DNA of 64,000 bases from sequence record MK047718.1. One strand, given 5' to 3'. Shown here piece by piece: positions 1 to 49,274 of the stretch. The stretch comes from Escherichia phage p000y. Under the pieces are notes generated by a model. It had not been told where the DNA came from and did not search any database. It saw nothing but the letters and a program-made list of their open reading frames with translations. A program made the translations under genes and the position numbers. Position 1 is the first letter of the stretch, and each line of letters starts with the position of its first letter.

Positions 1-84
1 TCTTCAATGTAGAATGGCTATTATTAACAGTAAACGACTACCAGGAAAAGCTTCTAAAGCAGTGATTAAAATCTAGAGGTAAAC

Positions 85-627
85 ATGAGAAAAGCACTAC
101 TCGCTGGTCTATTTGCTCTTTCGTTATCAGCACATAGCTCCGAGCATACTTTTAGTAATGTCCAACTCGATAACTTGAATTATGCTTATCAGTTTGGGGA
201 ACAGTTTTCTAAGGATGGAAAATTTAAAACGCATGAAAATATGCATAAGAAAGGACTTGGATACATAATGGCCGCAATACTATGGCAGGAATCATCTGCC
301 GGTATTAATCTTAAAGATAAGAAAGGTCACCATGCGTATGGAATGTTCCAAAATTATCTACCAACAATGAGGGCAAGAATTAACCAACTTGGTTATAATA
401 TGACTGATGCCCAAATTAAGAAAATGCTATCTAAGCGGTCTAATTCAGCCAGATGGGCTTATATCGAATTTTCTTATTGGTTAAATATACATAACGGGGA
501 TATAAGAAAAGCTATATCCTCATATAATGCGGGATGGAAGACAAGTGCCGGAAGTAAATATGCTTCTGAAGTCCTAGAAAAGGCTAATTACCTTAAATCA
601 AATAAACTACTGGAAATAAAAGAATGA
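85..627 (+). CDS. Secreted lytic transglycosylase-like (lysozyme-fold) protein, 180 aa
   Basis: N-terminal signal peptide (MRKALLAGLFALSLSAHS); SLT-type motifs QESS, GMFQ and YNAG in the translation. Confidence 0.5.
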   Translation: MRKALLAGLFALSLSAHSSEHTFSNVQLDNLNYAYQFGEQFSKDGKFKTHENMHKKGLGYIMAAILWQESSAGINLKDKKGHHAYGMFQNYLPTMRARINQLGYNMTDAQIKKMLSKRSNSARWAYIEFSYWLNIHNGDIRKAISSYNAGWKTSAGSKYASEVLEKANYLKSNKLLEIKE

Positions 628-971
628 CCAAAATGTTGGCTTTAATAGTTAGCTTGGTTTCATTTAACGCTCTTGCTAATACTACATATACTGATGTAAC
701 GGAGTATACAAACAGAACGGCGTCTGATTATTGTGGTAAAAGTCAAGAGTGTAAAGTAGATTTTTCACAAAAATTGTTATATGCGTATAAAGACGGAGAA
801 AAAGACGGGGCGTCTAGTAGGTTCAAGGCGTCTACCTTAATTAAAAGATACTATAAAAAATGGCAAATATTAGAATGCTCGGTGGCGGAACCTAAAGATA
901 AGGCAGCATGCAATTCTATGGTGGACCGTCTAGTTGACTCTTATAATAGAGGACTTGCAGCAAGTGATTAA
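624..971 (+). CDS. Small secreted Cys-containing protein, 115 aa
   Basis: Signal-peptide-like N-terminus; ATGA start/stop overlap with the upstream ORF. Confidence 0.4.
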   Translation: MTKMLALIVSLVSFNALANTTYTDVTEYTNRTASDYCGKSQECKVDFSQKLLYAYKDGEKDGASSRFKASTLIKRYYKKWQILECSVAEPKDKAACNSMVDRLVDSYNRGLAASD

Positions 972-1431
972 AAACTATATCAAGGGCGATATTGTCGCCC
1001 TGTTTTCTAAAGGTAATAATATTGCTCATGGGTGTAATTGTTTTCATACAATGGGCGCCGGTGTAGCAGGCCAATTAGCAAAGGCTTATCCAAAAATTTT
1101 AGAAGCCGATAAACTTCAAACCGAATTCGGAGACAAGTCTAAACTCGGGACTTATTCGGTTTATGAAAAATATTTTAAGACCCATAAAGCTTATTGCTTT
1201 AATCTTTATACACAGTTTGAGCCGGGACCTAATTTTGAGTACTCTGCTTTAATGAATTGTATAATAGAATTAAATGAATTCGGAAAGAATAAGATAATAA
1301 AGCCTGTAATTTATATGCCAAGAATTGGTGCAGGTATTGGTGGTGGAAACTGGGATGTCATCGAAGAGATTTTAGATACGTATTCTACTAAACTAGAAAT
1401 TGTGATTGTTGATTGGGAACCGTTATTATGA
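934..1431 (+). CDS. Macro-domain (ADP-ribose binding/processing) protein
   Basis: HGCNCF...MGAGVAGQL glycine-rich loop typical of macro domains; no in-frame ATG at the 5' end, so the start is uncertain (TTG 934 or GTG 964). Confidence 0.5.
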   Translation: MTLIIEDLQQVIKNYIKGDIVALFSKGNNIAHGCNCFHTMGAGVAGQLAKAYPKILEADKLQTEFGDKSKLGTYSVYEKYFKTHKAYCFNLYTQFEPGPNFEYSALMNCIIELNEFGKNKIIKPVIYMPRIGAGIGGGNWDVIEEILDTYSTKLEIVIVDWEPLL

Positions 1432-1640
1432 ATATACATTATCCACATCCATATGACCCAAAGAATAAGGCAGTAATTATTCGTCAATGGGAACGCATTT
1501 GTCGTACCAAATGTCCAATTAATAGTCAACATGATGTAGATAAAGACTACATCGGAACATTCGTTGAATATACCTTTATTGATAAGAAAGGCCATAAACA
1601 ACATGTAGAAGAATATTGCTTAAAGGTGACATGGCTATGA
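1428..1640 (+). CDS. Hypothetical protein, 70 aa
   Basis: ATG 1428 overlaps the upstream stop (ATGA); His/Cys-containing translation. Confidence 0.4.
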   Translation: MNIHYPHPYDPKNKAVIIRQWERICRTKCPINSQHDVDKDYIGTFVEYTFIDKKGHKQHVEEYCLKVTWL

Positions 1641-1843
1641 GTCAAACAAAAATTCTTACAGGTGCTAAATGCGAAAAATGCGAATGGCCTGTAGTTTTTG
1701 CTTTATGCAATGACGAAATGGCTTGTGATTTTGATTATTGGTGTTACTGTTCGAACAAAGGTTGTAGCAATCATAAAGGTGAAGGGTTTTACTCAGGGTT
1801 TTACCCTTACCCAGATTTCGTTAAAGAAGGTGAACCTAAATGA
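1637..1843 (+). CDS. Cys-rich small protein, 68 aa (probable metal-binding)
   Basis: ATGA coupling; multiple CxxC-type pairs (CEKCEW, CYCSNKGC). Confidence 0.4.
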   Translation: MSQTKILTGAKCEKCEWPVVFALCNDEMACDFDYWCYCSNKGCSNHKGEGFYSGFYPYPDFVKEGEPK

Positions 1844-2022
1844 AATTGACTAAAGAAGAGAAAACTAAACTGTTTGAACTTATCCATGACCTATTGGATG
1901 AGCAAGCAGCCACCAATGCGTATGATGAATATGCTCCTTTGACGGACGAAGAATATCAAGCATTGTTGGAATCATTTGACAGGAAAGAACAAGAACTCAT
2001 TGACTACGTGAATTCACTATAA
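1840..2022 (+). CDS. Acidic hypothetical protein, 60 aa
   Basis: ATGA-coupled ORF immediately upstream of tk. Confidence 0.35.
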   Translation: MKLTKEEKTKLFELIHDLLDEQAATNAYDEYAPLTDEEYQALLESFDRKEQELIDYVNSL

Positions 2023-2031
2023 GGGACTCTT

Positions 2032-2613
2032 ATGGCTAGTTTAATTTTTACCTATGCCGCTATGAACGCTGGTAAGTCTGCTTCATTACTTACTGCCGCA
2101 CATAACTATAAAGAACGTGGCATGGGTGTATTAGTTCTTAAACCGGCTATTGATACTCGCGATTCAAAAGGTGAAATAGTCTCTCGTATTGGTATTCGTC
2201 AGGACGCCAATATAATTACAAAAGACATGGATATCTTTGAATTTTATAAATGGGCTGCAGCACAAAAGGATATTCACTGCGTATTTGTTGACGAAGCTCA
2301 GTTCTTAACTACTGAAAAGGTGTATCAACTTAGTCGTATTGTTGACGTGTACAATGTGCCGGTAATGGCATATGGACTACGAACAGATTTTAAAGGTAAT
2401 CTATTTGAAGGTTCTCAAGCATTAATGGCTATTGCCGATAAGCTTGTTGAACTTAAAGGTGTCTGTCATTGTGGTAAAAAGGCCACAATGGTAGCTAGAG
2501 TCACGGAAGACGGACTTCCAATTACAGATGGCAGTCAAATTGAAATTGGTGATACCGATAGATATGTGTCATTATGCCGGAAGCATTGGAATGATTTGAC
2601 AGGGTTGTTATAA
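2032..2613 (+). CDS. tk: Thymidine kinase
   Basis: 193 aa, P-loop AAMNAGKSASLL, C-terminal zinc ribbon CHCGKKA...; T4 tk family. Confidence 0.92.
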   Translation: MASLIFTYAAMNAGKSASLLTAAHNYKERGMGVLVLKPAIDTRDSKGEIVSRIGIRQDANIITKDMDIFEFYKWAAAQKDIHCVFVDEAQFLTTEKVYQLSRIVDVYNVPVMAYGLRTDFKGNLFEGSQALMAIADKLVELKGVCHCGKKATMVARVTEDGLPITDGSQIEIGDTDRYVSLCRKHWNDLTGLL

Positions 2614-2640
2614 ATACTAATATCTAACCAAGAGGTATAT

Positions 2641-2853
2641 ATGCAGCAATTAAACGAAAGACAACTTCGTAATCTTACTGTAACCCAATTAGATGAAATC
2701 CGAAGAGAATTAGGACATTCTATTTCTCATTTAAACGAGGATATCCGTCAAACTGGTTCTAAAGCTGATTATACACGCAAGCGCAAGCTGGAAAAATACC
2801 TCACAGATGTTAAGGCCGTCCAAAGGCGAAAAATAAATACTGGCCAAAATTAA
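2641..2853 (+). CDS. Hypothetical protein, 70 aa
   Basis: ORF with RBS AAGAGG upstream; sits between tk and rI as T4 rI.1 does. Confidence 0.4.
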
Positions 2854-2865
2854 CAGGAGGCCTAT

Positions 2866-3168
2866 ATGGCCTTAAGAGCGATAGCTGTCATAGCGATGCT
2901 GGGGTTTTTTGCAGCAACAACTCCTATCGTTGGTACTGCACATATCGACCCATATTTTGATAACTTTATGGAATCAGGGATTAAAAACGTATATACTTTG
3001 TTTGAAATTCAAAATGTCGAGAATTCTGAAAAATTCTATAAGTATATGGCAAAGCATTACAAAAATAGCCCCTGTGATGATGCATTTGAATGTCATGAAC
3101 AAGGCATAAAAACTGCCAGACAATTTGCCGAGTTCATGAAAATAAAATTAGAGCCTACATCTATCTAA
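2866..3168 (+). CDS. rI: Lysis inhibition regulator rI (membrane-anchored periplasmic protein)
   Basis: 100 aa; N-terminal hydrophobic anchor then DPYFDNFMESGI...; reads as a T4 rI homologue; RBS AGGAGG. Confidence 0.8.
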   Translation: MALRAIAVIAMLGFFAATTPIVGTAHIDPYFDNFMESGIKNVYTLFEIQNVENSEKFYKYMAKHYKNSPCDDAFECHEQGIKTARQFAEFMKIKLEPTSI

Positions 3169-3456: not shown

Positions 3457-3663
3457 ATGCTTTACGATTATACTGGAAAATCTGAAGACGGTGTACTTGA
3501 ACTTTTACCTGAAAGCGCTGAAGATGATGATATGGTGGTGATGTTTTGTAAAAATGGCCCTGGGGATAAGGGATGGATTTATCTTCGTCAAGAAAATGAC
3601 TTAATTGTTTTGGACCCTAAACAAGTTGAAGAACTTTATCAACATTTAAAACACAATCGGTAG
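3457..3663 (+). CDS. Hypothetical acidic protein, 68 aa
   Basis: RBS GTGAGG upstream of ATG 3457. Confidence 0.4.
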   Translation: MLYDYTGKSEDGVLELLPESAEDDDMVVMFCKNGPGDKGWIYLRQENDLIVLDPKQVEELYQHLKHNR

Positions 3664-3698
3664 TTTACATCTTGGTAGGACTATGTTATAGTAGTCCT
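3663..3698 (+). promoter_or_regulatory. Early promoter with embedded stem-loop (PeSL-like cassette)
   Basis: GTTTAC 3663-3668, TATAGT 3687-3692; 8-bp inverted repeat TAGGACTA/TAGTCCTA spans the -10. Confidence 0.55.
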
Positions 3699-3827
3699 AT
3701 CAAAACAAACGGAGAACAAAATGAAACTTTTGCTTATCGCTTATGTTGTAGTACAATACAATTATCCGATGTTTACTTATAACATGGTAAACGGCATAGT
3801 GAATCTTATTGAAACGAGTATGGTAAA

Positions 3828-4007
3828 ATGACCCGTGAACAAGCTAATAAATTGATGGAACTTATCCGTAACTTACGTGAAGCCGATTCAGATTTGAATG
3901 ATGTAGCTTATCATGCAGTAAATGATAACGAAGACTTTTATGAAAATCAGGTTGATGCTTGTCTGAATGATTTGGTGAATTTTGTTGAAACTTTAATTGG
4001 TGAATAA
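3828..4007 (+). CDS. Hypothetical acidic protein, 59 aa
   Basis: ORF below the track threshold; ATGA-coupled to a preceding 36-aa ORF (3721-3831) that has a strong RBS AACGGAG. Confidence 0.35.
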   Translation: MTREQANKLMELIRNLREADSDLNDVAYHAVNDNEDFYENQVDACLNDLVNFVETLIGE

Positions 4008-4008
4008 T

Positions 4009-4539
4009 ATGAAAACTGTAATTGAAACAACCGAGTTGTTTGGCGATTTATGTATCGAAAAACGTGGTTATGCTTACGTTCTGACACAAGAAGATGATGC
4101 TGTTACTATTCTTCCTATGGAACTGGACAAGATTTTGAAACTCAATCCGCCCGGCCATGCATCTGTAATTAACATTGATGAAGACCTTCAAGTTCGTTTT
4201 TATCACGGTCTTTATAGTGGGGTTAATATCGAAACAGAAGATGAATGCCTTTCTATCAATAATTGGAAAACATTCGTCACTAAGGTGAAAGAATTAATGG
4301 AATCTGAAACAGCCAAAAAGGCCAAACTTCAATGGGCTAAATGCCGTAATGCTTTTATTACAAATCAGGACCGCCCTGACTATACAACAGTCCTAGGCGT
4401 TAATCCTTCTTATGAAGACGGTGATGTCGTAGTTATTCGCCAAATTGATGACCTTCGTCAACATATCATTACATTAGACAAAGATGAAGCAGTTGCTCTT
4501 AAAGCTTATCTTGATTCTATTATCCCAACCTTGAAATAA
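4009..4539 (+). CDS. Hypothetical protein, 176 aa
   Basis: ATG 4009 (the track ORF begins at an upstream TTG). Confidence 0.45.
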   Translation: MKTVIETTELFGDLCIEKRGYAYVLTQEDDAVTILPMELDKILKLNPPGHASVINIDEDLQVRFYHGLYSGVNIETEDECLSINNWKTFVTKVKELMESETAKKAKLQWAKCRNAFITNQDRPDYTTVLGVNPSYEDGDVVVIRQIDDLRQHIITLDKDEAVALKAYLDSIIPTLK

Positions 4540-4549
4540 GGAAATTATT

Positions 4550-5023
4550 ATGATTATCAATGAAAACTCTTGGCACTTTAAAATTTATGCCACGTTTAAT
4601 AGTACATGGAATCGTCCGAAAACGTTGTGTGCTTATTTTTGGAAAACGCTAATCCCGGTATTGGCTGCTTCAATTATTGGATTTGCGATTTTAGCAGCAG
4701 TCACAATCATTGGTCAGGAAATTTTAACTAAATTCTTTGTTTTTAGCAGTCTATGGACATTAGTTCCAGCTTCAATTGGTATAGGCATTTTAACAATATC
4801 AGTAATGGTTCTTATTGCTGTCGGGGCGGTAATTGGTCCATCTTGGTTATTAGACAAATATAACGACAGAAAATATTATAAAGAAATTGAGCTCATTGCA
4901 CAAAACCAAGAACGAATTAAAAATGGACTTGAGCCTATTGAACGTAAGAAATCATTAATAGGTGAATACATTAAAGCTCGTAAAGAAAAAGTCTGTCCTA
5001 CTCTTGAATATAAGGCTAAATGA
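4550..5023 (+). CDS. Integral membrane protein, 157 aa
   Basis: Several long hydrophobic segments (LIPVLAASIIGFAILAAVTIIG..., LVPASIGIGILTISVMVLIAVGAVIG). Confidence 0.5.
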   Translation: MIINENSWHFKIYATFNSTWNRPKTLCAYFWKTLIPVLAASIIGFAILAAVTIIGQEILTKFFVFSSLWTLVPASIGIGILTISVMVLIAVGAVIGPSWLLDKYNDRKYYKEIELIAQNQERIKNGLEPIERKKSLIGEYIKARKEKVCPTLEYKAK

Positions 5024-6009
5024 TGAAAACAATTATGAAAGGCTACTTTGGTAGCCACCTTTATGGAACGTCTACTCCTGAATCTGACGTCGATTTTAAA
5101 GAAATTTATGTCCCTCATGCTCGTGATATCTTGACCGGTAACGTTAAAGAACACATGAGCAAGAACACTAACAACACTGCTTCTAAGAACACAAAAGACG
5201 ACGTGGACCATGAGTTGTATAGTCTCAAATATTTCTTTAAACTAGCTGCAGATGGTGAAACCGTCGCATTAGATATGCTTCACACCCCACAAAGTCTAGT
5301 AGTTAAATCTGATTTGCCTGATGTATGGAAGTATATTCAAGATAACAGGTCTCGTTTCTATACCACTAACATGAAATCTTATTTAGGGTATGTCCGTAAG
5401 CAAGCTTCTAAATATGGTGTCAAGGGTTCTCGACTGGCTGTTCTTCGTCAAGCCCTTAAACGTTCTAATGAATGGGGACAATACTTTGATAATGGTGCAG
5501 TAATTCGTTTATCACATATGAAGAACGTTCTGCCTGTAGGTGAATTTGCTTCATGGGTTGAAACCGAAAACGAGAAAACAGGTAAGCAAACATTCTATAA
5601 TCTGTTGGACCGTAAATTCCAAGACACGTTAACCAATAAAGAGTTCAATGCCATCCTGGTTAAACTGGAAGAGAACTATGGTGAACGTGCTCGTAAGGCG
5701 GAAGCCAACGAAGGTATTGACTGGAAAGCATTGAGTCATGCATGTCGTGGTGGACTTCAACTATTGGAAATTTATAAAACCGGTGACTTGGTTTACCCAC
5801 TTCAGGATGCTCCATTTATTCTCGATGTTAAGCTTGGTAAACATACGTTTAAAACTGTACAAGAATTCCTAGAAGATATTGTTGACCAAGTTGAACATGC
5901 GTCAGAACAAGCTGCCAAGAATGGTATGCAACAAAAAGTAGATATGAGTTTCTGGGATGATTTCCTTGAGCAAGTCTATCTCGAAAATCATAATTCTTAC
6001 TATAAATAA
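5020..6009 (+). CDS. Pol-beta-superfamily nucleotidyltransferase-fold protein, 329 aa
   Basis: GS-x(n)-DhD motif GSHLYGTSTPESDVDF plus a downstream acidic ETVALDML, the hallmark of minimal NTases; ATGA-coupled to the membrane protein. Confidence 0.5.
   Translation: MMKTIMKGYFGSHLYGTSTPESDVDFKEIYVPHARDILTGNVKEHMSKNTNNTASKNTKDDVDHELYSLKYFFKLAADGETVALDMLHTPQSLVVKSDLPDVWKYIQDNRSRFYTTNMKSYLGYVRKQASKYGVKGSRLAVLRQALKRSNEWGQYFDNGAVIRLSHMKNVLPVGEFASWVETENEKTGKQTFYNLLDRKFQDTLTNKEFNAILVKLEENYGERARKAEANEGIDWKALSHACRGGLQLLEIYKTGDLVYPLQDAPFILDVKLGKHTFKTVQEFLEDIVDQVEHASEQAAKNGMQQKVDMSFWDDFLEQVYLENHNSYYK
6001..6008 (+). promoter_or_regulatory. Candidate late promoter (TATAAATA)
   Basis: Exact TATAAATA about 33 nt upstream of the 6041 start. 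Confidence 0.35.
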
Positions 6010-6040
6010 ATAGATAAATAACCATTCACTTGAGGTAAAT

Positions 6041-6307
6041 ATGAAAAAATTAGTAATTGGTTTATTCGCAGTAATGATGGCGTTCTCTGTTGGTGCTACC
6101 ACGGGTGCAGGAGCTGGTGGTAACCAGTCTTCTGGGCCTTCCAATGGTTCGGTAAATGCATCACATTCTCAGGGTATTGAGAATATCAAATCAAGCTATA
6201 TTAATAGCACGGCTGGACAAGCAACTGAAGCATGGTCAAAGGGCCGAGTAGTTACTCACTCTGTATTCTGTGATATGCCTAATTATGTTGCTAAGTGCGA
6301 TAAGTAA
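6041..6307 (+). CDS. Small secreted Gly/Ser-rich protein, 88 aa
   Basis: Signal peptide MKKLVIGLFAVMMAFSVGA; RBS TGAGG. Confidence 0.5.
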   Translation: MKKLVIGLFAVMMAFSVGATTGAGAGGNQSSGPSNGSVNASHSQGIENIKSSYINSTAGQATEAWSKGRVVTHSVFCDMPNYVAKCDK

Positions 6308-6311
6308 ATGT

Positions 6312-6333
6312 GGGGACCTTCGGGTCCCTTTAG
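6312..6333 (+). terminator. Rho-independent terminator (UUCG tetraloop hairpin)
   Basis: GGGACC-TTCG-GGTCCC followed by TTT. Confidence 0.6.
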
Positions 6334-6358
6334 GGGGTTAAAATATTTTAAAAAAGTA

Positions 6359-6387
6359 GTGTACATGCTTTTAGGATATGTTATTAT
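6359..6387 (+). promoter_or_regulatory. Early promoter (GTGTAC -35, TATTAT -10)
   Basis: 17-bp spacing; followed by the TATAGACCTATC element. Confidence 0.5.
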
Positions 6388-6425
6388 AGACCTATCGAAA
6401 CGAAATGAGTAAATTGGAGAATAAA

Positions 6426-7406
6426 ATGTTCAACGTTCAAATCAAAAAAGGTATCTATCGTAATAACGAAATCTCTGGATCTTATGTCGCCACAAAGACA
6501 TGGTTCCCAGCAAAGCTTAATCCTGAATGTTCCCACTTAGGTGATGGTAAAATTTTCGTTATGATTGATGGTTCTGAACGTGGAGTATGGGTCTTCAAAT
6601 CAGACATCGTAATGGAAGGAGTTGAGACATCACCAGTTGCAGTTGTTGAAAGCACTGAAGATATGAAAACTCGTATCAACAAACGCTTTAAAGTAATGAA
6701 CATGATGACGAATGGCATTATCGATGGCAAAATTCGTTCACTCATCATTTCAGGTGCAGCCGGTATTGGTAAGACGTATTCTCTGGATAAAGCACTTAAT
6801 AATGCTAATGATAATGGTTTCATCAAATACAAAAGCATTAATGGTAAAATCTCTGGTATCGGCCTTTACGAACAACTTTGGCTCAACCGTGATGCAGACA
6901 GCGTTCTCTTAATCGACGATGTTGATGTATTCTCTGATATGGATATCTTGAACCTTCTTAAAGCAGCATTAGATACCGGAGATAAACGCAAAGTTTGTTG
7001 GAGCACTGCGTCATCTTATCTTGATGATAAGGGTATTGATAAAGAATTTGAGTTTGAAGGTACTATCGTTTTCATTACAAACGTTGATATCGATAAAGAG
7101 TTAGAACGTGGTTCGAAACTTGCCCCACACCTTCAAGCTTTAGTATCTCGTTCAGTGTATCTCGACCTTGGAGTACACTCTAATGAAGAGATTATGGTTC
7201 GAGTTGAAGACGTAATATTATCTACTGACATGATGCAGAAACGTGGTCTGACTGATGCTGAAACGTACAAAGCATTGTCCTGGATGAAGGCTAACGTATC
7301 TCGTCTTCGCAATGTATCATTACGTACGGCTCTTTATGTAGCAGATTTTATTTCAACTGATAAAGATGGTTGGGAGGAAATCTCCGAAGTAACTTTACTG
7401 AAATAA
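6426..7406 (+). CDS. AAA+/P-loop ATPase, about 326 aa
   Basis: Walker A GAAGIGKT and Walker B LLIDDVD; start placed at ATG 6426 with RBS GGAG (the track ORF starts at 6405). Confidence 0.55.
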   Translation: MFNVQIKKGIYRNNEISGSYVATKTWFPAKLNPECSHLGDGKIFVMIDGSERGVWVFKSDIVMEGVETSPVAVVESTEDMKTRINKRFKVMNMMTNGIIDGKIRSLIISGAAGIGKTYSLDKALNNANDNGFIKYKSINGKISGIGLYEQLWLNRDADSVLLIDDVDVFSDMDILNLLKAALDTGDKRKVCWSTASSYLDDKGIDKEFEFEGTIVFITNVDIDKELERGSKLAPHLQALVSRSVYLDLGVHSNEEIMVRVEDVILSTDMMQKRGLTDAETYKALSWMKANVSRLRNVSLRTALYVADFISTDKDGWEEISEVTLLK

Positions 7407-12952: not shown

Positions 12953-13123
12953 ATGCAAGTTAAATTATTGTACCGTTTATTAAAAAATGGCAAGCACGAT
13001 TGGTATTTGCTTATTAAAACCGATCCGAATTTTTTCTCTGGGCAACCATTTACAGTTCGTCCTACTAAACGTCAGCTTCGCAAAGCTAAACGTTCTCATC
13101 GTAACTTTTATAGAGAATATTGA
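12953..13123 (+). CDS. Small basic protein, 56 aa (paralogue of 13548-13727)
   Basis: C-terminus RPTKRQLRKAKRSHRNFYREY resembles RPTKKMIRQYKRFHRDFYNVY in the downstream ORF. Confidence 0.4.
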   Translation: MQVKLLYRLLKNGKHDWYLLIKTDPNFFSGQPFTVRPTKRQLRKAKRSHRNFYREY

Positions 13124-13124
13124 T

Positions 13125-13538
13125 ATGAATATTTCTGAAACTCGCGGTAAATGGTTCAAGATTGTTAAAGAAGATGAAGAACTACAAGTCAAGTTTCCTG
13201 AATTAAAGAAAGGAACAATCATCAAGGTAATTGGTACTACTACCGAAGATGGTTATGGCGACCATGGCATTATCGAAGTGATGTTGAACACAGGTGAGAA
13301 ACTTTGCATCTATGACCGTGATACTTGTCTTTGGTGCTTCTGGGAATCCCATTCAATAGATGAACTCGAAGAAATTGACCAAGTAGTTTGTGACAGTGAA
13401 CTTGGCAAATTTGAAGGTGAACGTATTTCTTATGCTTTAGCTAAATTAGCCGCCCAAGAAAATAATGACGGTTATGAAGGTAATCTGATGCAAGCCGCAG
13501 CGGAATACATTGAATATTTAGAAAGACGTTTAAGTTAA
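13125..13538 (+). CDS. Hypothetical acidic protein, 137 aa
   Basis: ATG 13125 immediately after the upstream stop. Confidence 0.45.
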   Translation: MNISETRGKWFKIVKEDEELQVKFPELKKGTIIKVIGTTTEDGYGDHGIIEVMLNTGEKLCIYDRDTCLWCFWESHSIDELEEIDQVVCDSELGKFEGERISYALAKLAAQENNDGYEGNLMQAAAEYIEYLERRLS

Positions 13539-42334: not shown

Positions 42335-42628
42335 ATGAAAAAGTTATCATTGGCAGCAATCTTACTTGCAGTATCATGTGCACCGGCTCCAGTTACGGCA
42401 GGTTATGATAAAGACCTCTGTGAGTGGTCAATGACTGCAAATCAAGAAGATGTTGAACAACAAATCTTCTCTGATATCATGAACATCACTAAACGAGACC
42501 GTCCTAATATGGTTAATAAAGTTGTTGAACAACTTAAGTCTGGTGGTATCATGCAGTACAACTATGTTTTGTATTGTGACCCTAATTTCGATAACAAAGA
42601 TATCGTAACCGAAATCACAGGTGAATAA
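42335..42628 (+). CDS. sp: Periplasmic protein, 97 aa; candidate Spackle (sp) superinfection-exclusion protein
   Basis: Signal peptide MKKLSLAAILLAVSCAPA; size and position relative to 41/61 match T4 sp. Confidence 0.4.
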   Translation: MKKLSLAAILLAVSCAPAPVTAGYDKDLCEWSMTANQEDVEQQIFSDIMNITKRDRPNMVNKVVEQLKSGGIMQYNYVLYCDPNFDNKDIVTEITGE

Positions 42629-42629
42629 T

Positions 42630-43280
42630 ATGATTTATTATATGCACAAAAACGCACCATTTAAATATGGTAAATTTCCTAATGCACAATGTTATAATAT
42701 AACGCCGAACGAAAATAATAACGGATATCATATTGGTGTAATTTTTGTAATTGTTAAAGATAACGAAATCATTGCCTGGGCCGATTTTAAAGGTACAACA
42801 TATGATGTTAATCCTGTGCCTTTCACATATTACAATATAATGGATTTGGCATATGATTATAATTGGTTTAATCATGACACGTTGGCTCATATTGAAGGTG
42901 TAGGATTTGACATCTCTTATTCTAGCTATTCATTATGTCCTATGAGCCGAGCTCACGGTAAAGATGTATCATATCTTTCAATTCGGAAACGTGTAAACTT
43001 CAAACGTAGTACAGAGTATGTTGGTGGACTCTTTGTTAAAGATAATAAAATAACCCGTATTAGTTATCCTTTAAGTGTAGGTCAAAAAGATGTTGACGTT
43101 GATTTGGACTTAACTGAAAATAACATTAATCGTATTGCTTCTGTATATTTTGATATCGATGAAAAAATTGTAGTGTGTGGATACGAATTACCACCTGAAG
43201 AAAAGGCTGAAGCAATTGAAGTCGAATTAGAAATTTCTGTTGATGACCAAATATTTAATGCATTTATGAATCGAGGTTAA
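42630..43280 (+). CDS. Hypothetical protein, 216 aa
   Basis: ATG 42630 (the track ORF starts at GTG 42621). Confidence 0.4.
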   Translation: MIYYMHKNAPFKYGKFPNAQCYNITPNENNNGYHIGVIFVIVKDNEIIAWADFKGTTYDVNPVPFTYYNIMDLAYDYNWFNHDTLAHIEGVGFDISYSSYSLCPMSRAHGKDVSYLSIRKRVNFKRSTEYVGGLFVKDNKITRISYPLSVGQKDVDVDLDLTENNINRIASVYFDIDEKIVVCGYELPPEEKAEAIEVELEISVDDQIFNAFMNRG

Positions 43281-48026: not shown

Positions 48027-48608
48027 ATGACATGTCAATCTGAACTTCAAGAACGTGAATACCTAACAAATCTGATTGATAGCAAATTCACCCGCCAAGA
48101 ACAAAACATTCTCTGGGCTTGCACCGATTCTAAGGAAGACCCAGATTTCCACTATGAATTAGACCATCTTGTTCGTAAGCATATGACTTCTACAGTACCA
48201 GTAGAACTCTACCGTGGTGTAACTCCAGAAGAAGTAGAACGTCTTTCCCTTCTTTCTGTTGGATGCCATTGGTCTCCTGGACGAGTAACATCGTTCACAA
48301 CTGATTTCGGTACGGCTCGTCAATTCTCCGGGAGATGGGAATATCAGACGTACACTATTCTTAGTCTCAGGAATGCTCCATTCATTTTTGATTACTACCA
48401 AAACATGGTTAACATTGTACTCGCCGGAAAGAACCCTAAACATGTTATGGAAGAAACGCGTGTTGACGTCTTAGATATGATTGAATCTGAACAAGAGTAC
48501 ATGGTCTCAAGTATCTCTAGATTTGAGATTGTGGAAATTGAAGACTTAGAATATGACCCTTTATCTCGATTATACAAAATCATTCATTTGAAAATGTTGA
48601 ATTTTTAG
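48027..48608 (+). CDS. modB: ADP-ribosyltransferase, ModB-like
   Basis: 193 aa; R ... S-x-S ... E-x-E arrangement (YRG, SFT, ESEQE); paralogue of the next gene; position upstream of srd/dda as in T4. Confidence 0.5.
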   Translation: MTCQSELQEREYLTNLIDSKFTRQEQNILWACTDSKEDPDFHYELDHLVRKHMTSTVPVELYRGVTPEEVERLSLLSVGCHWSPGRVTSFTTDFGTARQFSGRWEYQTYTILSLRNAPFIFDYYQNMVNIVLAGKNPKHVMEETRVDVLDMIESEQEYMVSSISRFEIVEIEDLEYDPLSRLYKIIHLKMLNF

Positions 48609-48637
48609 TGTACAAACTCTTCCGATGATGATACTAT
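48608..48637 (+). promoter_or_regulatory. Early promoter (GTGTAC, TACTAT)
   Basis: 18-bp spacing; followed by TATAGACCTATC. Confidence 0.45.
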
Positions 48638-48665
48638 AGACCTATCAACCACAGGAGAAACCTAA

Positions 48666-49274
48666 ATGTTTATGCCGTATAACGAGTGTGAAATTGAAGA
48701 AATGGTTCGTCGTGCTCAAAACCCTGAATATCAAGATGAATTGCAGTATGAAATTGATAGTCAATTCAGTGACATTGAACAAAGTGTACTGTGGCGGTGT
48801 ATGGAAAACAAGCCAGACTGTATTCAACAGGAGTTAAGTTCAATCGTTCGTAGAAATTGGACGTCTTCTGTTCCTGAGACAATGTATCGTGGAATCTCTA
48901 AGAAAACTATGGCCGCACTCGATGATAAAGGCATTGGTAGTATTATTAAATTTGACAGAGTAATGAGCTTCAGCCCAGTGTTCGGTGTAGCACGTAACTT
49001 TGCTTCGTATAATTTTTACGGAACATTTAATATGTTCTGCATCAAAGATGCACCATTTGCTTTCAACTTCCGTGAACATATGCTTAACATGATTCTGGCT
49101 GCGCCATCTTGTGAGTTCAATGGAGCTTTCCCTGAAGCGACAAGACGGTCTAATGCTAGACTTATATCCGACGAATGTGAATTTATGCTCCCTATAGGGA
49201 CTACACTGCGTGTAGATTCTATTATTCAAGATGGACGTTATACAATCTGGAATCTGTCTATTGTCAGTTACTGA
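48666..49274 (+). CDS. modA: ADP-ribosyltransferase, ModA-like
   Basis: 202 aa; YRG, SFS and ECEF motif elements; shared architecture with 48027-48608. Confidence 0.5.
   Translation: MFMPYNECEIEEMVRRAQNPEYQDELQYEIDSQFSDIEQSVLWRCMENKPDCIQQELSSIVRRNWTSSVPETMYRGISKKTMAALDDKGIGSIIKFDRVMSFSPVFGVARNFASYNFYGTFNMFCIKDAPFAFNFREHMLNMILAAPSCEFNGAFPEATRRSNARLISDECEFMLPIGTTLRVDSIIQDGRYTIWNLSIVSY

What the first reader, a model, noticed from the sequence alone, without database searches (positions are those of the whole stretch)
934..1431. Macro-domain protein in a phage that also encodes two ADP-ribosyltransferases
The macro fold (HGCNCF...MGAGVAGQL) binds or hydrolyses ADP-ribose. With ModB-like and ModA-like ADP-ribosyltransferases at 48027-49274, the phage appears to carry both writer and eraser/reader activities. 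The macro protein could reverse host ADP-ribosylation-based defence or tune the phage's own modifications. Its start codon is non-ATG or unclear.
Basis: partly seen in the sequence, partly recalled or inferred. Interest (0 to 1): 0.5.

Follow-up and report, generated by a model that had tools for sequence, protein, structure and literature searches.

The report
T4 Tk.4/AdfM macrodomain ortholog
This gene is the counterpart, in a T4-like coliphage, of T4 tk.4 (AdfM), a small ADP-ribose-removing "macro" enzyme recently shown to protect T4 from the bacterial DarTG2 defence that ADP-ribosylates phage DNA. It is real but already known.

Summary

The true CDS is 964-1431, 155 aa, starting at GTG. 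The TTG at 934 is an ORF-finder artefact.

The window is a Mosigvirus (T4-like). The gene is the syntenic ortholog of T4 tk.4: 85% identity, no gaps, in the order regB-vs.1-vs-tk.4-tk.3...tk.

A 2025 preprint named T4 tk.4 "AdfM". Knocking it out makes T4 sensitive to DarTG2, whose toxin ADP-ribosylates thymidine in ssDNA.

The other idea, an eraser paired with ModA/ModB, has no support. The two Mod-like genes are real but lie 47 kb away.

One added detail: this family has an invariant Gln where DarG, TARG1 and PhiKZ AdfM have the catalytic Lys. That matches SCO6735, a stand-alone bacterial thymidine-ADPr hydrolase. Bacterial homologs checked had no DarT2 homolog within 4 kb. T4-type AdfM is therefore not a DarG copy.

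Already known; low interest.

The parts
964..1431 (+). CDS of the macro-domain protein (155 aa, GTG start, TGA stop); ortholog of T4 tk.4 / AdfM
949..953 (+). Shine-Dalgarno GAGGA, 10 nt upstream of GTG 964. The start overlaps the end of vs (stop 969-971) by 8 nt, which suggests translational coupling.
   Evidence: Read from the sequence. T4 has the same GAGGA at nearly the same spacing before its ATG.
1027..1062 (+). Codons H22-G33 (HGCNCFHTMGAG): Asn25 and the GxG loop that line the ADP-ribose pocket in macro domains
   Evidence: G23, N25, C26 and G33 are invariant in 63 homologs. H22 and N25 are kept in 80/80 bacterial homologs. N25 aligns with PhiKZ AdfM N23, whose N23A mutation reduces activity (PMC13309987).
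1201..1215 (+). Codons N80-L-Y-T-Q84: the family-invariant Gln sits at the position of the catalytic Lys of DarG (K80) and TARG1 (K84)
   Evidence: N80, Y82 and Q84 are invariant, and N80 and Q84 are kept in 80/80 bacterial loci. Q84 falls in the same column as DarG K80, TARG1 K84 and the PhiKZ FPTK Lys. The profile alignment places Q84 opposite TARG1 K84 and the BT1257 Gln. SCO6735 Gln85 is the equivalent residue and Q85A is inactive (PMC9411070).
1318..1347 (+). Codons P119-G128 (PRIGAGIGGG): second glycine-rich, diphosphate-binding loop of the macro fold
   Evidence: P119, I121, G122 and G124 are invariant. I125, G127 and G128 are at least 90% conserved.
48027..48608 (+). ModB-like ADP-ribosyltransferase.
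   Evidence: PHROG 832 E=1e-37. 38% identity to T4 ModB with R, S and ExE aligned.
48666..49274 (+). ModA-like ADP-ribosyltransferase.
   Evidence: PHROG 832 E=1e-37. 30% identity to T4 ModA with R, S and ExE aligned.

Best explanation
Window 964-1431 encodes the ortholog of phage T4 Tk.4, now called AdfM (anti-DarT factor, Macrodomain). It is a single-domain, 155-aa macrodomain of the TARG1/DarG/SCO6735 (ALC1-like) class.

**Proposed mechanism**
- When the phage infects a cell carrying the DarTG2 toxin-antitoxin defence, the DarT2 toxin ADP-ribosylates thymidines in single-stranded phage DNA and blocks replication.
- The phage macrodomain binds the ADP-ribose moiety and hydrolyses the N-glycosidic bond to the base, restoring the DNA. 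It acts as an orphan, phage-borne antitoxin.
- Catalysis most likely follows the SCO6735 type, because the invariant Gln84 sits where DarG and TARG1 have the catalytic Lys. In that mechanism Gln positions the distal ribose and an activated water attacks.

**Shown here**
- Macro fold and class.
- Orthology and synteny with T4 tk.4.
- Conservation of the pocket residues.

**Shown in the literature for the T4 ortholog only:** genetic requirement for growth on DarTG2 hosts.

**Inferred**
- That this allele does the same.
- That the protection is enzymatic.
- The Gln-type chemistry.
For: **Orthology**
- 85% identity over the full length to T4 Tk.4.
- Same gene order regB-vs.1-vs-tk.4-tk.3-tk.2-tk.

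**Fold and class**
- Pfam Macro and AF2 pLDDT 96.

**Function of the ortholog**
- tk.4 was the single significant hit in a T4 transposon screen on a DarTG2 host.
- A clean knock-out became DarTG2-sensitive (preprint).
- T4 lacking adfA and adfN stays DarTG2-resistant, so another factor was expected (PMC11825919).

**Chemistry precedent**
- SCO6735 has Gln85 at the Lys position. It cleaves thymidine-ADPr on ssDNA and rescues DarT toxicity, and Q85A is dead (PMC9411070).
- Q84 is invariant in 63 phage/metagenome homologs and in 80/80 bacterial homologs.
- An unrelated phage macrodomain, PhiKZ gp104, removes DarT2 marks in vitro (PMC13309987).

**Context:** the same window also carries AdfA (Pfam PF23813, E=9e-120), so this genome holds layered anti-DarT genes.
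Against: - No biochemical assay exists for T4 Tk.4 or for this allele. The T4 evidence is genetic and comes from one preprint.
- The catalytic Lys of DarG/TARG1 is absent. The SCO6735-type mechanism is carried over by alignment. I could not obtain a direct residue-level alignment to SCO6735 around Gln85, because pairwise HMMER covered only the C-terminal part.
- The loop after the Gln is shorter than in BT1257 (profile alignment), and it lacks the extra length that SCO6735 has relative to DarG/TARG1 (PMC9411070).
- The allele differs from T4 at 23 positions, including G127 here against K127 in T4. Here the window carries the family consensus.
- Sensitivity of this phage to DarTG2 has not been tested.
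Confidence: 0.75

Rival explanations
1. Small-molecule ADP-ribose processing. The protein would be a Poa1p-like ADP-ribose-1''-phosphate phosphatase or O-acetyl-ADP-ribose deacetylase that cleans up NAD-derived metabolites. This is what the database label 'phosphatase' implies.
For: - T4 tk.4 is annotated 'phosphatase; contains A1pp phosphatase motif', and PHROG 335 is labelled phosphatase.
- One bacterial homolog lies in a cluster with NADAR-like, MacroD-like, NAD-synthetase-like and Nudix-like genes, recognised by eye in the output.
Against: - In the T4 DarTG2 screen tk.4 was the single significant hit, depleted specifically in the presence of DarTG2.
- The 'phosphatase' label comes from a motif, not from an assay.
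- From my own knowledge, T-even phages have no KptA/Tpt1 pathway that would produce Appr>p.
- A side activity on such metabolites is not excluded.
Confidence: 0.08
2. Non-catalytic antitoxin. The protein would protect mainly by binding DarT2 or ADP-ribosylated DNA rather than by hydrolysis.
For: - Catalytically dead SCO6735 Q85A still inhibits DarT in vitro, more strongly than DarG K80A or TARG1 K84A (PMC9411070).
- The other phage factors AdfA and AdfB act by binding DarT.
- The catalytic Lys is absent here.
Against: - Every pocket residue, including the Gln that is essential for SCO6735 catalysis, is invariant across phage and bacterial homologs. That is what an enzyme would show.
- The bacterial homologs have no DarT2 homolog within 4 kb, so conservation cannot be explained by a toxin-binding surface.
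Confidence: 0.1
3. Eraser for the phage's own ADP-ribosyltransferases. The macrodomain would reverse or tune Alt/ModA/ModB marks on host proteins.
For: - The genome carries ModB-like and ModA-like genes.
- An arginine-specific macrodomain (MavL) is known (reference), so the chemistry is not impossible for the fold.
Against: - There is no genomic linkage: the genes are 47 kb apart.
- The protein's class (TARG1/DarG/SCO6735) is documented on thymine/uracil-N3 and Glu/Asp linkages, not Arg.
- In the T4 screen tk.4 was depleted specifically in the presence of DarTG2.
- Homologs occur in about 2800 phage records from many groups and in many bacterial chromosomes. I did not check how many of these also carry Mod-type enzymes.
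Confidence: 0.04

Closest known systems
Phage T4 Tk.4 = AdfM (NP_049723; bioRxiv 10.1101/2025.11.20.689424)
   Same: Same length (155 aa), 85% identity with no gaps, and the same neighbours (vs upstream with overlapping stop/start, tk.3 downstream). The same invariant residues are present.
   Different: There are 23 substitutions, including G127 here (the family consensus) against K127 in T4. The start codon is GTG instead of ATG. The host genome is a Mosigvirus, not a Tequatrovirus. The DarTG2 phenotype has not been tested for this allele.
Streptomyces coelicolor SCO6735 (PDB 5E3B) and Bacteroides BT1257 (PDB 2AFC/2FG1)
   Same: Both are stand-alone single macro domains of the ALC1-like class with Gln in place of the catalytic Lys. 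BT1257 is the best sequence and structure match. SCO6735 cleaves thymidine-ADPr on DNA and needs Gln85.
   Different: Identity is only about 25-30%. BT1257 has a roughly six-residue longer loop after the Gln. SCO6735's mobile loop is five residues longer than in DarG/TARG1 and carries two extra Lys. They are cellular, DNA-damage-linked genes rather than phage counter-defence genes.
DarG antitoxin macrodomain (M. tuberculosis 5M3I, T. aquaticus 5M31)
   Different: It has no catalytic Lys80 (Gln instead), no C-terminal DarT-binding domain and no adjacent darT. The NCBIfam DarG model scores 32 bits against a cut-off of 250.
PhiKZ gp104 'AdfM' (Cell Rep 2026, PMC13309987)
   Same: It is a phage-encoded single macrodomain that counters DarTG2. 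The conserved pocket Asn is shared (N23 there, N25 here).
   Different: It comes from a different subfamily. gp104 is 35% identical to the Mtb DarG macrodomain and keeps the FPTK Lys. Against the window protein BLASTP finds only a 23-residue local match. The shared name covers two independent recruitments.
Human TARG1/OARD1 and yeast Poa1p
   Different: The TARG1 Lys84/Asp125 dyad is replaced by Gln84/Gly126. Poa1p is a metabolite phosphatase.

Membership tests
Macro domain superfamily (Pfam PF01661) | Profile match above the curated threshold | tested here: met
   28.4 bits against a gathering score of 22, E=1.7e-6, covering profile positions 2-117 of 118.
Macro domain superfamily (Pfam PF01661) | Three-layer alpha/beta/alpha macro fold | tested here: met
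Macro domain superfamily (Pfam PF01661) | ADP-ribose pocket motifs (Asn after strand 2, GxG loop, second Gly-rich loop) | tested here: met
   N25, G31-A-G33 and P119-x-I-G-x-G-x-x-G-G128 are present and invariant or nearly invariant in the family.
T4 Tk.4 / AdfM orthologous group | Full-length high identity to T4 Tk.4 and conserved position between vs and tk.3 | tested here: met
   85% identity over 155/155 residues; synteny.
T4 Tk.4 / AdfM orthologous group | Confers resistance to DarTG2 | not testable with these tools
   Shown only for T4 by knock-out. It needs plaque assays.
ALC1-like (TARG1/DarG/SCO6735/Poa1p) macro class | Closest structural and sequence neighbours are members of this class | tested here: met
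Gln-type subclass (SCO6735/BT1257-like) | Gln at the position of TARG1 Lys84 / DarG Lys80 | tested here: met
   Q84 aligns with TARG1 K84 and the BT1257 Gln in the profile alignment, and with DarG K80 in the MAFFT alignment. The equivalence to SCO6735 Gln85 is taken from PMC9411070. It was not aligned directly here.
Gln-type subclass (SCO6735/BT1257-like) | Elongated, Lys-bearing mobile loop after the Gln | tested here: not met
   The family loop QFEPGPNFEY has TARG1-like length. BT1257 needs a 6-residue insertion relative to the profile.
DarG antitoxin (NCBIfam NF048014) | Equivalog model score above cut-off | tested here: not met
   32.4 bits against a cut-off of 250.
DarG antitoxin (NCBIfam NF048014) | Catalytic Lys80 | tested here: not met
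   Gln84 occupies that column.
DarG antitoxin (NCBIfam NF048014) | C-terminal DarT-binding domain and adjacent darT gene | tested here: not met
   The protein is a single 155-aa domain. tblastn with a DarT2 sequence finds nothing in the window beyond noise (E=4.2), and nothing next to 80 bacterial homologs.
Poa1p-type ADP-ribose-1''-phosphate phosphatase | Phosphatase activity on Appr-1''-p | not testable with these tools

The most novel reading that the evidence does not exclude
T4-type AdfM may not be a captured DarG. It may instead be an independently recruited member of a widespread, stand-alone, Gln-type cellular nucleic-acid ADP-ribose hydrolase family.

Like SCO6735, it could then have a broader range than DarT2 reversal:
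- uracil-ADPr on RNA;
- Glu-linked protein ADPr;
- direct DarT inhibition.

It could therefore also counter other, still unidentified ADP-ribosylating defences, or edit off-target marks of the phage's own transferases.
Probability: 0.2. Interest if true: 0.45.

Novelty: already known. Interest (0 to 1): 0.15.

Why it matters
It matters little as a discovery. The macro domain of T4 tk.4 has been annotated for two decades, and its role against DarTG2 was reported in 2025.

**Practical value**
- A correct annotation for this genome: start at GTG 964, product AdfM-like anti-DarT2 macrodomain rather than "phosphatase".
- The genome carries at least two anti-DarT genes in this window, AdfA and the AdfM ortholog.

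**Small conceptual addition**
- Two phage proteins now share the name AdfM (T4 Tk.4 and PhiKZ gp104), but they come from different macro subfamilies with different catalytic residues, Gln against Lys.
- Mechanistic conclusions should therefore not be carried from one to the other.
- The T4-type enzyme would be a convenient small model for Lys-independent thymidine de-ADP-ribosylation.

Tried and rejected
- **TTG 934 start (165 aa).** Rejected. It lies inside vs, T4 has an in-frame stop at the corresponding place, and related records start at the homolog of 964.
- **Filing the protein as DarG.** Rejected on score, the missing Lys, the missing C-terminal domain and the missing darT.
- **ICP1 AdfB as a relative.** Rejected. 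The paper describes AdfB as acting through direct interaction with DarT and does not describe it as a macrodomain.
- **Direct residue alignment to SCO6735 around Gln85.** Tried by searching the PDB with the C-terminal 94 residues. HMMER aligned only residues 52-85 of that fragment, so the Gln equivalence rests on the BT1257 and TARG1 profile alignments plus the published structural alignment.
- **BT1257 pairwise alignment.** Pairwise phmmer to BT1257 places Q84 opposite Asp. The family profile places N80 and Q84 opposite the BT1257 Asn and Gln, with an insertion. I preferred the profile alignment because it matches two invariant residues.
- **DarT2 next to bacterial homologs.** None found with one DarT2 query within 4 kb of 80 loci. 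One query gives limited sensitivity.
- **Rfam scan of the window at gathering thresholds.** No hits.
- **Promoter scan of 1-3000.** No excess over shuffles.
- **First structure-prediction submission.** It was re-run without it.
- **A rule I had intended to use.** I meant to argue that macro domains never cleave Arg-ADPr. I dropped this after seeing the MavL reference.

Full report
**What is there**

The window is a T4-like coliphage. Its first 3 kb are 99.4% identical to Mosigvirus genomes such as Shigella phage JK36 and Escherichia phage KAW3E185. The mechanical ORF 934-1431 (+) translates to a protein containing the quoted HGCNCF...MGAGVAGQL motifs.

Profile and structure searches confirm a macro domain:
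- Pfam Macro PF01661 at 28.4 bits, above the cut-off of 22.
- PHROG 335 at E=2.7e-66.
- PDB sequence hits to BT1257, Poa1p, SCO6735, DarG and TARG1.

I built an alignment of 63 homologs from the large protein collection and used it for AlphaFold2. The model has mean pLDDT 96.1 and pTM 0.91, with the expected alternating strand/helix order.

There is then a step down to 13.8 or less for coronavirus, PARP14, MacroD and other macro classes.

**Start codon**

The TTG at 934 is only the first permitted start codon after the previous in-frame stop, and it lies inside the vs gene (624-971). Three observations fix the start at GTG 964, giving 155 aa:
- JK36 and other records annotate that start.
- T4 tk.4 is exactly 155 aa. 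It starts at an ATG at the homologous codon and has an in-frame TAG immediately before it.
- A GAGGA Shine-Dalgarno (949-953) lies 10 nt upstream, at essentially the same spacing as in T4.

The start overlaps the vs stop codon (GTGATTAA), as ATGA does in T4.

**Identity**

The protein is 85% identical to T4 Tk.4 over all 155 residues without gaps. The gene order is that of T4:
- regB, upstream in JK36
- vs.1 (85-627, SLT-like)
- vs (624-971)
- this gene
- tk.3 (DUF7202)
- tk.2
- tk (2032-2613)
- rI.1
- rI

It is therefore the tk.4 ortholog.

**What tk.4 does**

T4's record still calls it "phosphatase; contains A1pp phosphatase motif". The full-text library holds a November 2025 preprint (HIDEN-SEQ, 10.1101/2025.11.20.689424) with the following results:
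- In a T4 transposon library grown on an E. coli host expressing DarTG2, tk.4 was the single significant hit.
- A clean tk.4 deletion made T4 sensitive to DarTG2.
- The gene was renamed adfM, anti-DarT factor Macrodomain.
- The authors infer enzymatic removal of ADP-ribose from DNA, but they do not show it.

This fits earlier work. T4 lacking adfA and adfN (gene 30.3, a NADAR enzyme acting on guanine-ADPr made by DarT1) stays resistant to DarTG2, whose toxin modifies thymidine (PMC11825919).

A separate 2026 paper uses the same name, AdfM, for PhiKZ gp104. It shows in vitro that gp104 removes DarT2 marks from a TNTC oligonucleotide and that N23A weakens it (PMC13309987).

**Active site**

- In the 63-sequence family alignment, G23, N25, C26, G33, A35, D49, G62, N80, Y82, Q84, P119, I121, G122 and G124 are invariant.
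- When aligned with DarG (M. tuberculosis and T. aquaticus; sequences verified against PDB entries), PhiKZ gp104 and TARG1, the invariant Gln84 falls in the column of the catalytic Lys: DarG K80, TARG1 K84, gp104 "FPTK".
- The TARG1 Asp125 column is Gly126.
- The family profile aligned to PDB sequences gives the same result, with NlYtQ opposite TARG1 YLITK and opposite BT1257 NMIGQ.

This looked at first like an argument against catalysis, but the literature resolves it. S. coelicolor SCO6735 has Gln85 at the position of these lysines. It still cleaves thymidine-linked ADP-ribose from ssDNA and rescues DarT toxicity, and it is inactivated by Q85A. A water-mediated mechanism was proposed. The dead mutant also inhibits DarT by binding (PMC9411070). 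SCO6735, TARG1 and DarG also act on uracil-ADPr RNA (PMC13036486).

So the window protein belongs to a Gln-type branch of the TARG1/DarG class. It is not a DarG:
- The NCBIfam DarG equivalog scores 32 bits against a cut-off of 250.
- There is no C-terminal DarT-binding domain.
- There is no darT in the window.

PhiKZ gp104, by contrast, is 35% identical to the Mtb DarG macrodomain and keeps the Lys. Against the window protein BLASTP finds only a 23-residue local match. The two "AdfM" proteins therefore look like independent recruitments from different subfamilies.

**Distribution**

- tblastn finds homologs in about 2800 phage records (Escherichia, Klebsiella, Salmonella, Pseudomonas, Vibrio, Acinetobacter phages and others). 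Two allele groups occur among T-even phages, roughly 85-99% and roughly 58% identity.
- A scan of one genome per bacterial species returned 245 chromosomal relatives. The best 80 are 32-45% identical and come from Rhodobacterales, Verrucomicrobiota, Desulfobacterales, Bacteroidota and others.
- All 80 keep H22, N25, N80 and Q84.
- None has a DarT2 homolog within 4 kb by tblastn with one DarT2 query.

The family is thus mainly a stand-alone cellular enzyme, like SCO6735 and BT1257, and not a toxin-linked antitoxin.

**The transferases**

The ORFs at 48027-48608 and 48666-49274 are Mod-type ADP-ribosyltransferases:
- PHROG 832, E about 1e-37 each.
- 38% identity to T4 ModB and 30% to T4 ModA, with the R, S and ExE motifs aligned.
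- T4 gene order mrh-modB-modA-srd-dda.

They are divergent and have no Pfam hit at E of 0.001 or better. Nothing links them functionally to the macro gene. They are 47 kb away, and in the T4 screen tk.4 was depleted specifically in the presence of DarTG2. The class of this macrodomain is documented on base-N3 and acidic-residue linkages, not on the Arg linkage made by Alt and Mod enzymes. I do not treat this as a proof of impossibility, because an Arg-specific macrodomain (MavL) is known (reference seen).

**Verdict**

Reversal of a host defence is right. The writer/eraser pairing is unsupported.
- The feature is already known as the T4 tk.4/AdfM ortholog.
- What remains open is biochemical: direct proof of hydrolysis, the Gln-type mechanism and the substrate range. 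It is the same for T4 itself.
- Interest is low.

Noticed in passing
window 983-1001 (+), inside the 5' end of the macro CDS: A terminator-like hairpin, AGGGCGAT-ATT-GTCGCCCT followed by GTTTTCT, with dG -13 kcal/mol and z -4.0 against shuffles. The 19 nt are identical in T4 and in Sf21, whose protein is only about 58% identical. In Krischvirus Makalu the stem is kept with different codons and amino acids (AGGGCGAT-CTC-ATCGCCCT). It is absent in Klebsiella phage Clarke. Other annotators marked a 'terminator' there. Its function is unknown; it could be an attenuator between vs and tk.4, an mRNA stability element, or a chance product of the conserved KGDIVAL codons.
   Followed up: partly
window 42621-43280 (+): AdfA (T4 gene 61.2 family; Pfam PF23813 Anti-DarT factor A, E=9e-120, matching residues 4-219). 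Published work ties this factor to DarTG1. The window therefore holds two anti-DarT genes, AdfA and the AdfM ortholog. The GTG start listed by the ORF finder may be a few codons too early.
   Followed up: partly
T-even phage records: The tk.4 locus exists in two clearly separated allele groups among T-even phages. One is about 85-99% identical to the window protein and includes T4 and RB33. The other is about 58% identical (Sf21, fPS-2 and many Tequatroviruses). The flanking vs gene remains alignable. This suggests allelic exchange or diversifying pressure at a counter-defence gene.
   Followed up: no
T4 Tk.4 residue 127 (L002) versus window codon 1342-1344: T4 itself has Lys127 in the second Gly-rich loop (IGAGIGKGNW). 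The window protein, at least 90% of the 63 family members and 76/80 bacterial homologs have Gly there. The characterised T4 allele is the atypical one at this pocket-loop position.
   Followed up: no
one of the bacterial loci printed (probably the Bacteroidales locus L077); macro gene at 4001-4441, flanking ORFs 3520-4017, 4426-4968, 5587-6423 and 6486-7184: A bacterial homolog of the macro protein sits in a tight same-strand cluster. The order is a NADAR/YbiA-like protein, the Tk.4-like Gln-type macro, a MacroD/YmdB-like macro, an NAD synthetase-like protein and a Nudix/NrtR-like protein. The neighbours were recognised by eye from their sequences, not by a profile search, and the locus header was lost in the truncated output. 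This looks like a possible ADP-ribose/NAD housekeeping island.
   Followed up: no
window 5020-6009 (+): A 329-aa protein matching Pfam RlaP (RNA repair pathway DNA polymerase beta family nucleotidyltransferase, E=7e-13) and PHROG 388. It lies in the variable region between rI and nrdC.
   Followed up: no
window 48027-49274 (+): The ModB-like and ModA-like proteins are only 38% and 30% identical to their T4 counterparts, and they fall below Pfam detection. The macro protein, by contrast, is 85% identical to T4's. The transferases evolve much faster than the hydrolase in these phages.
   Followed up: partly
window 12987-13538 (+): PinA-type inhibitor of host Lon protease (Pfam Inhibitor_I24, E=1e-48). 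This is an ordinary T-even gene, noted only for annotation.
   Followed up: no
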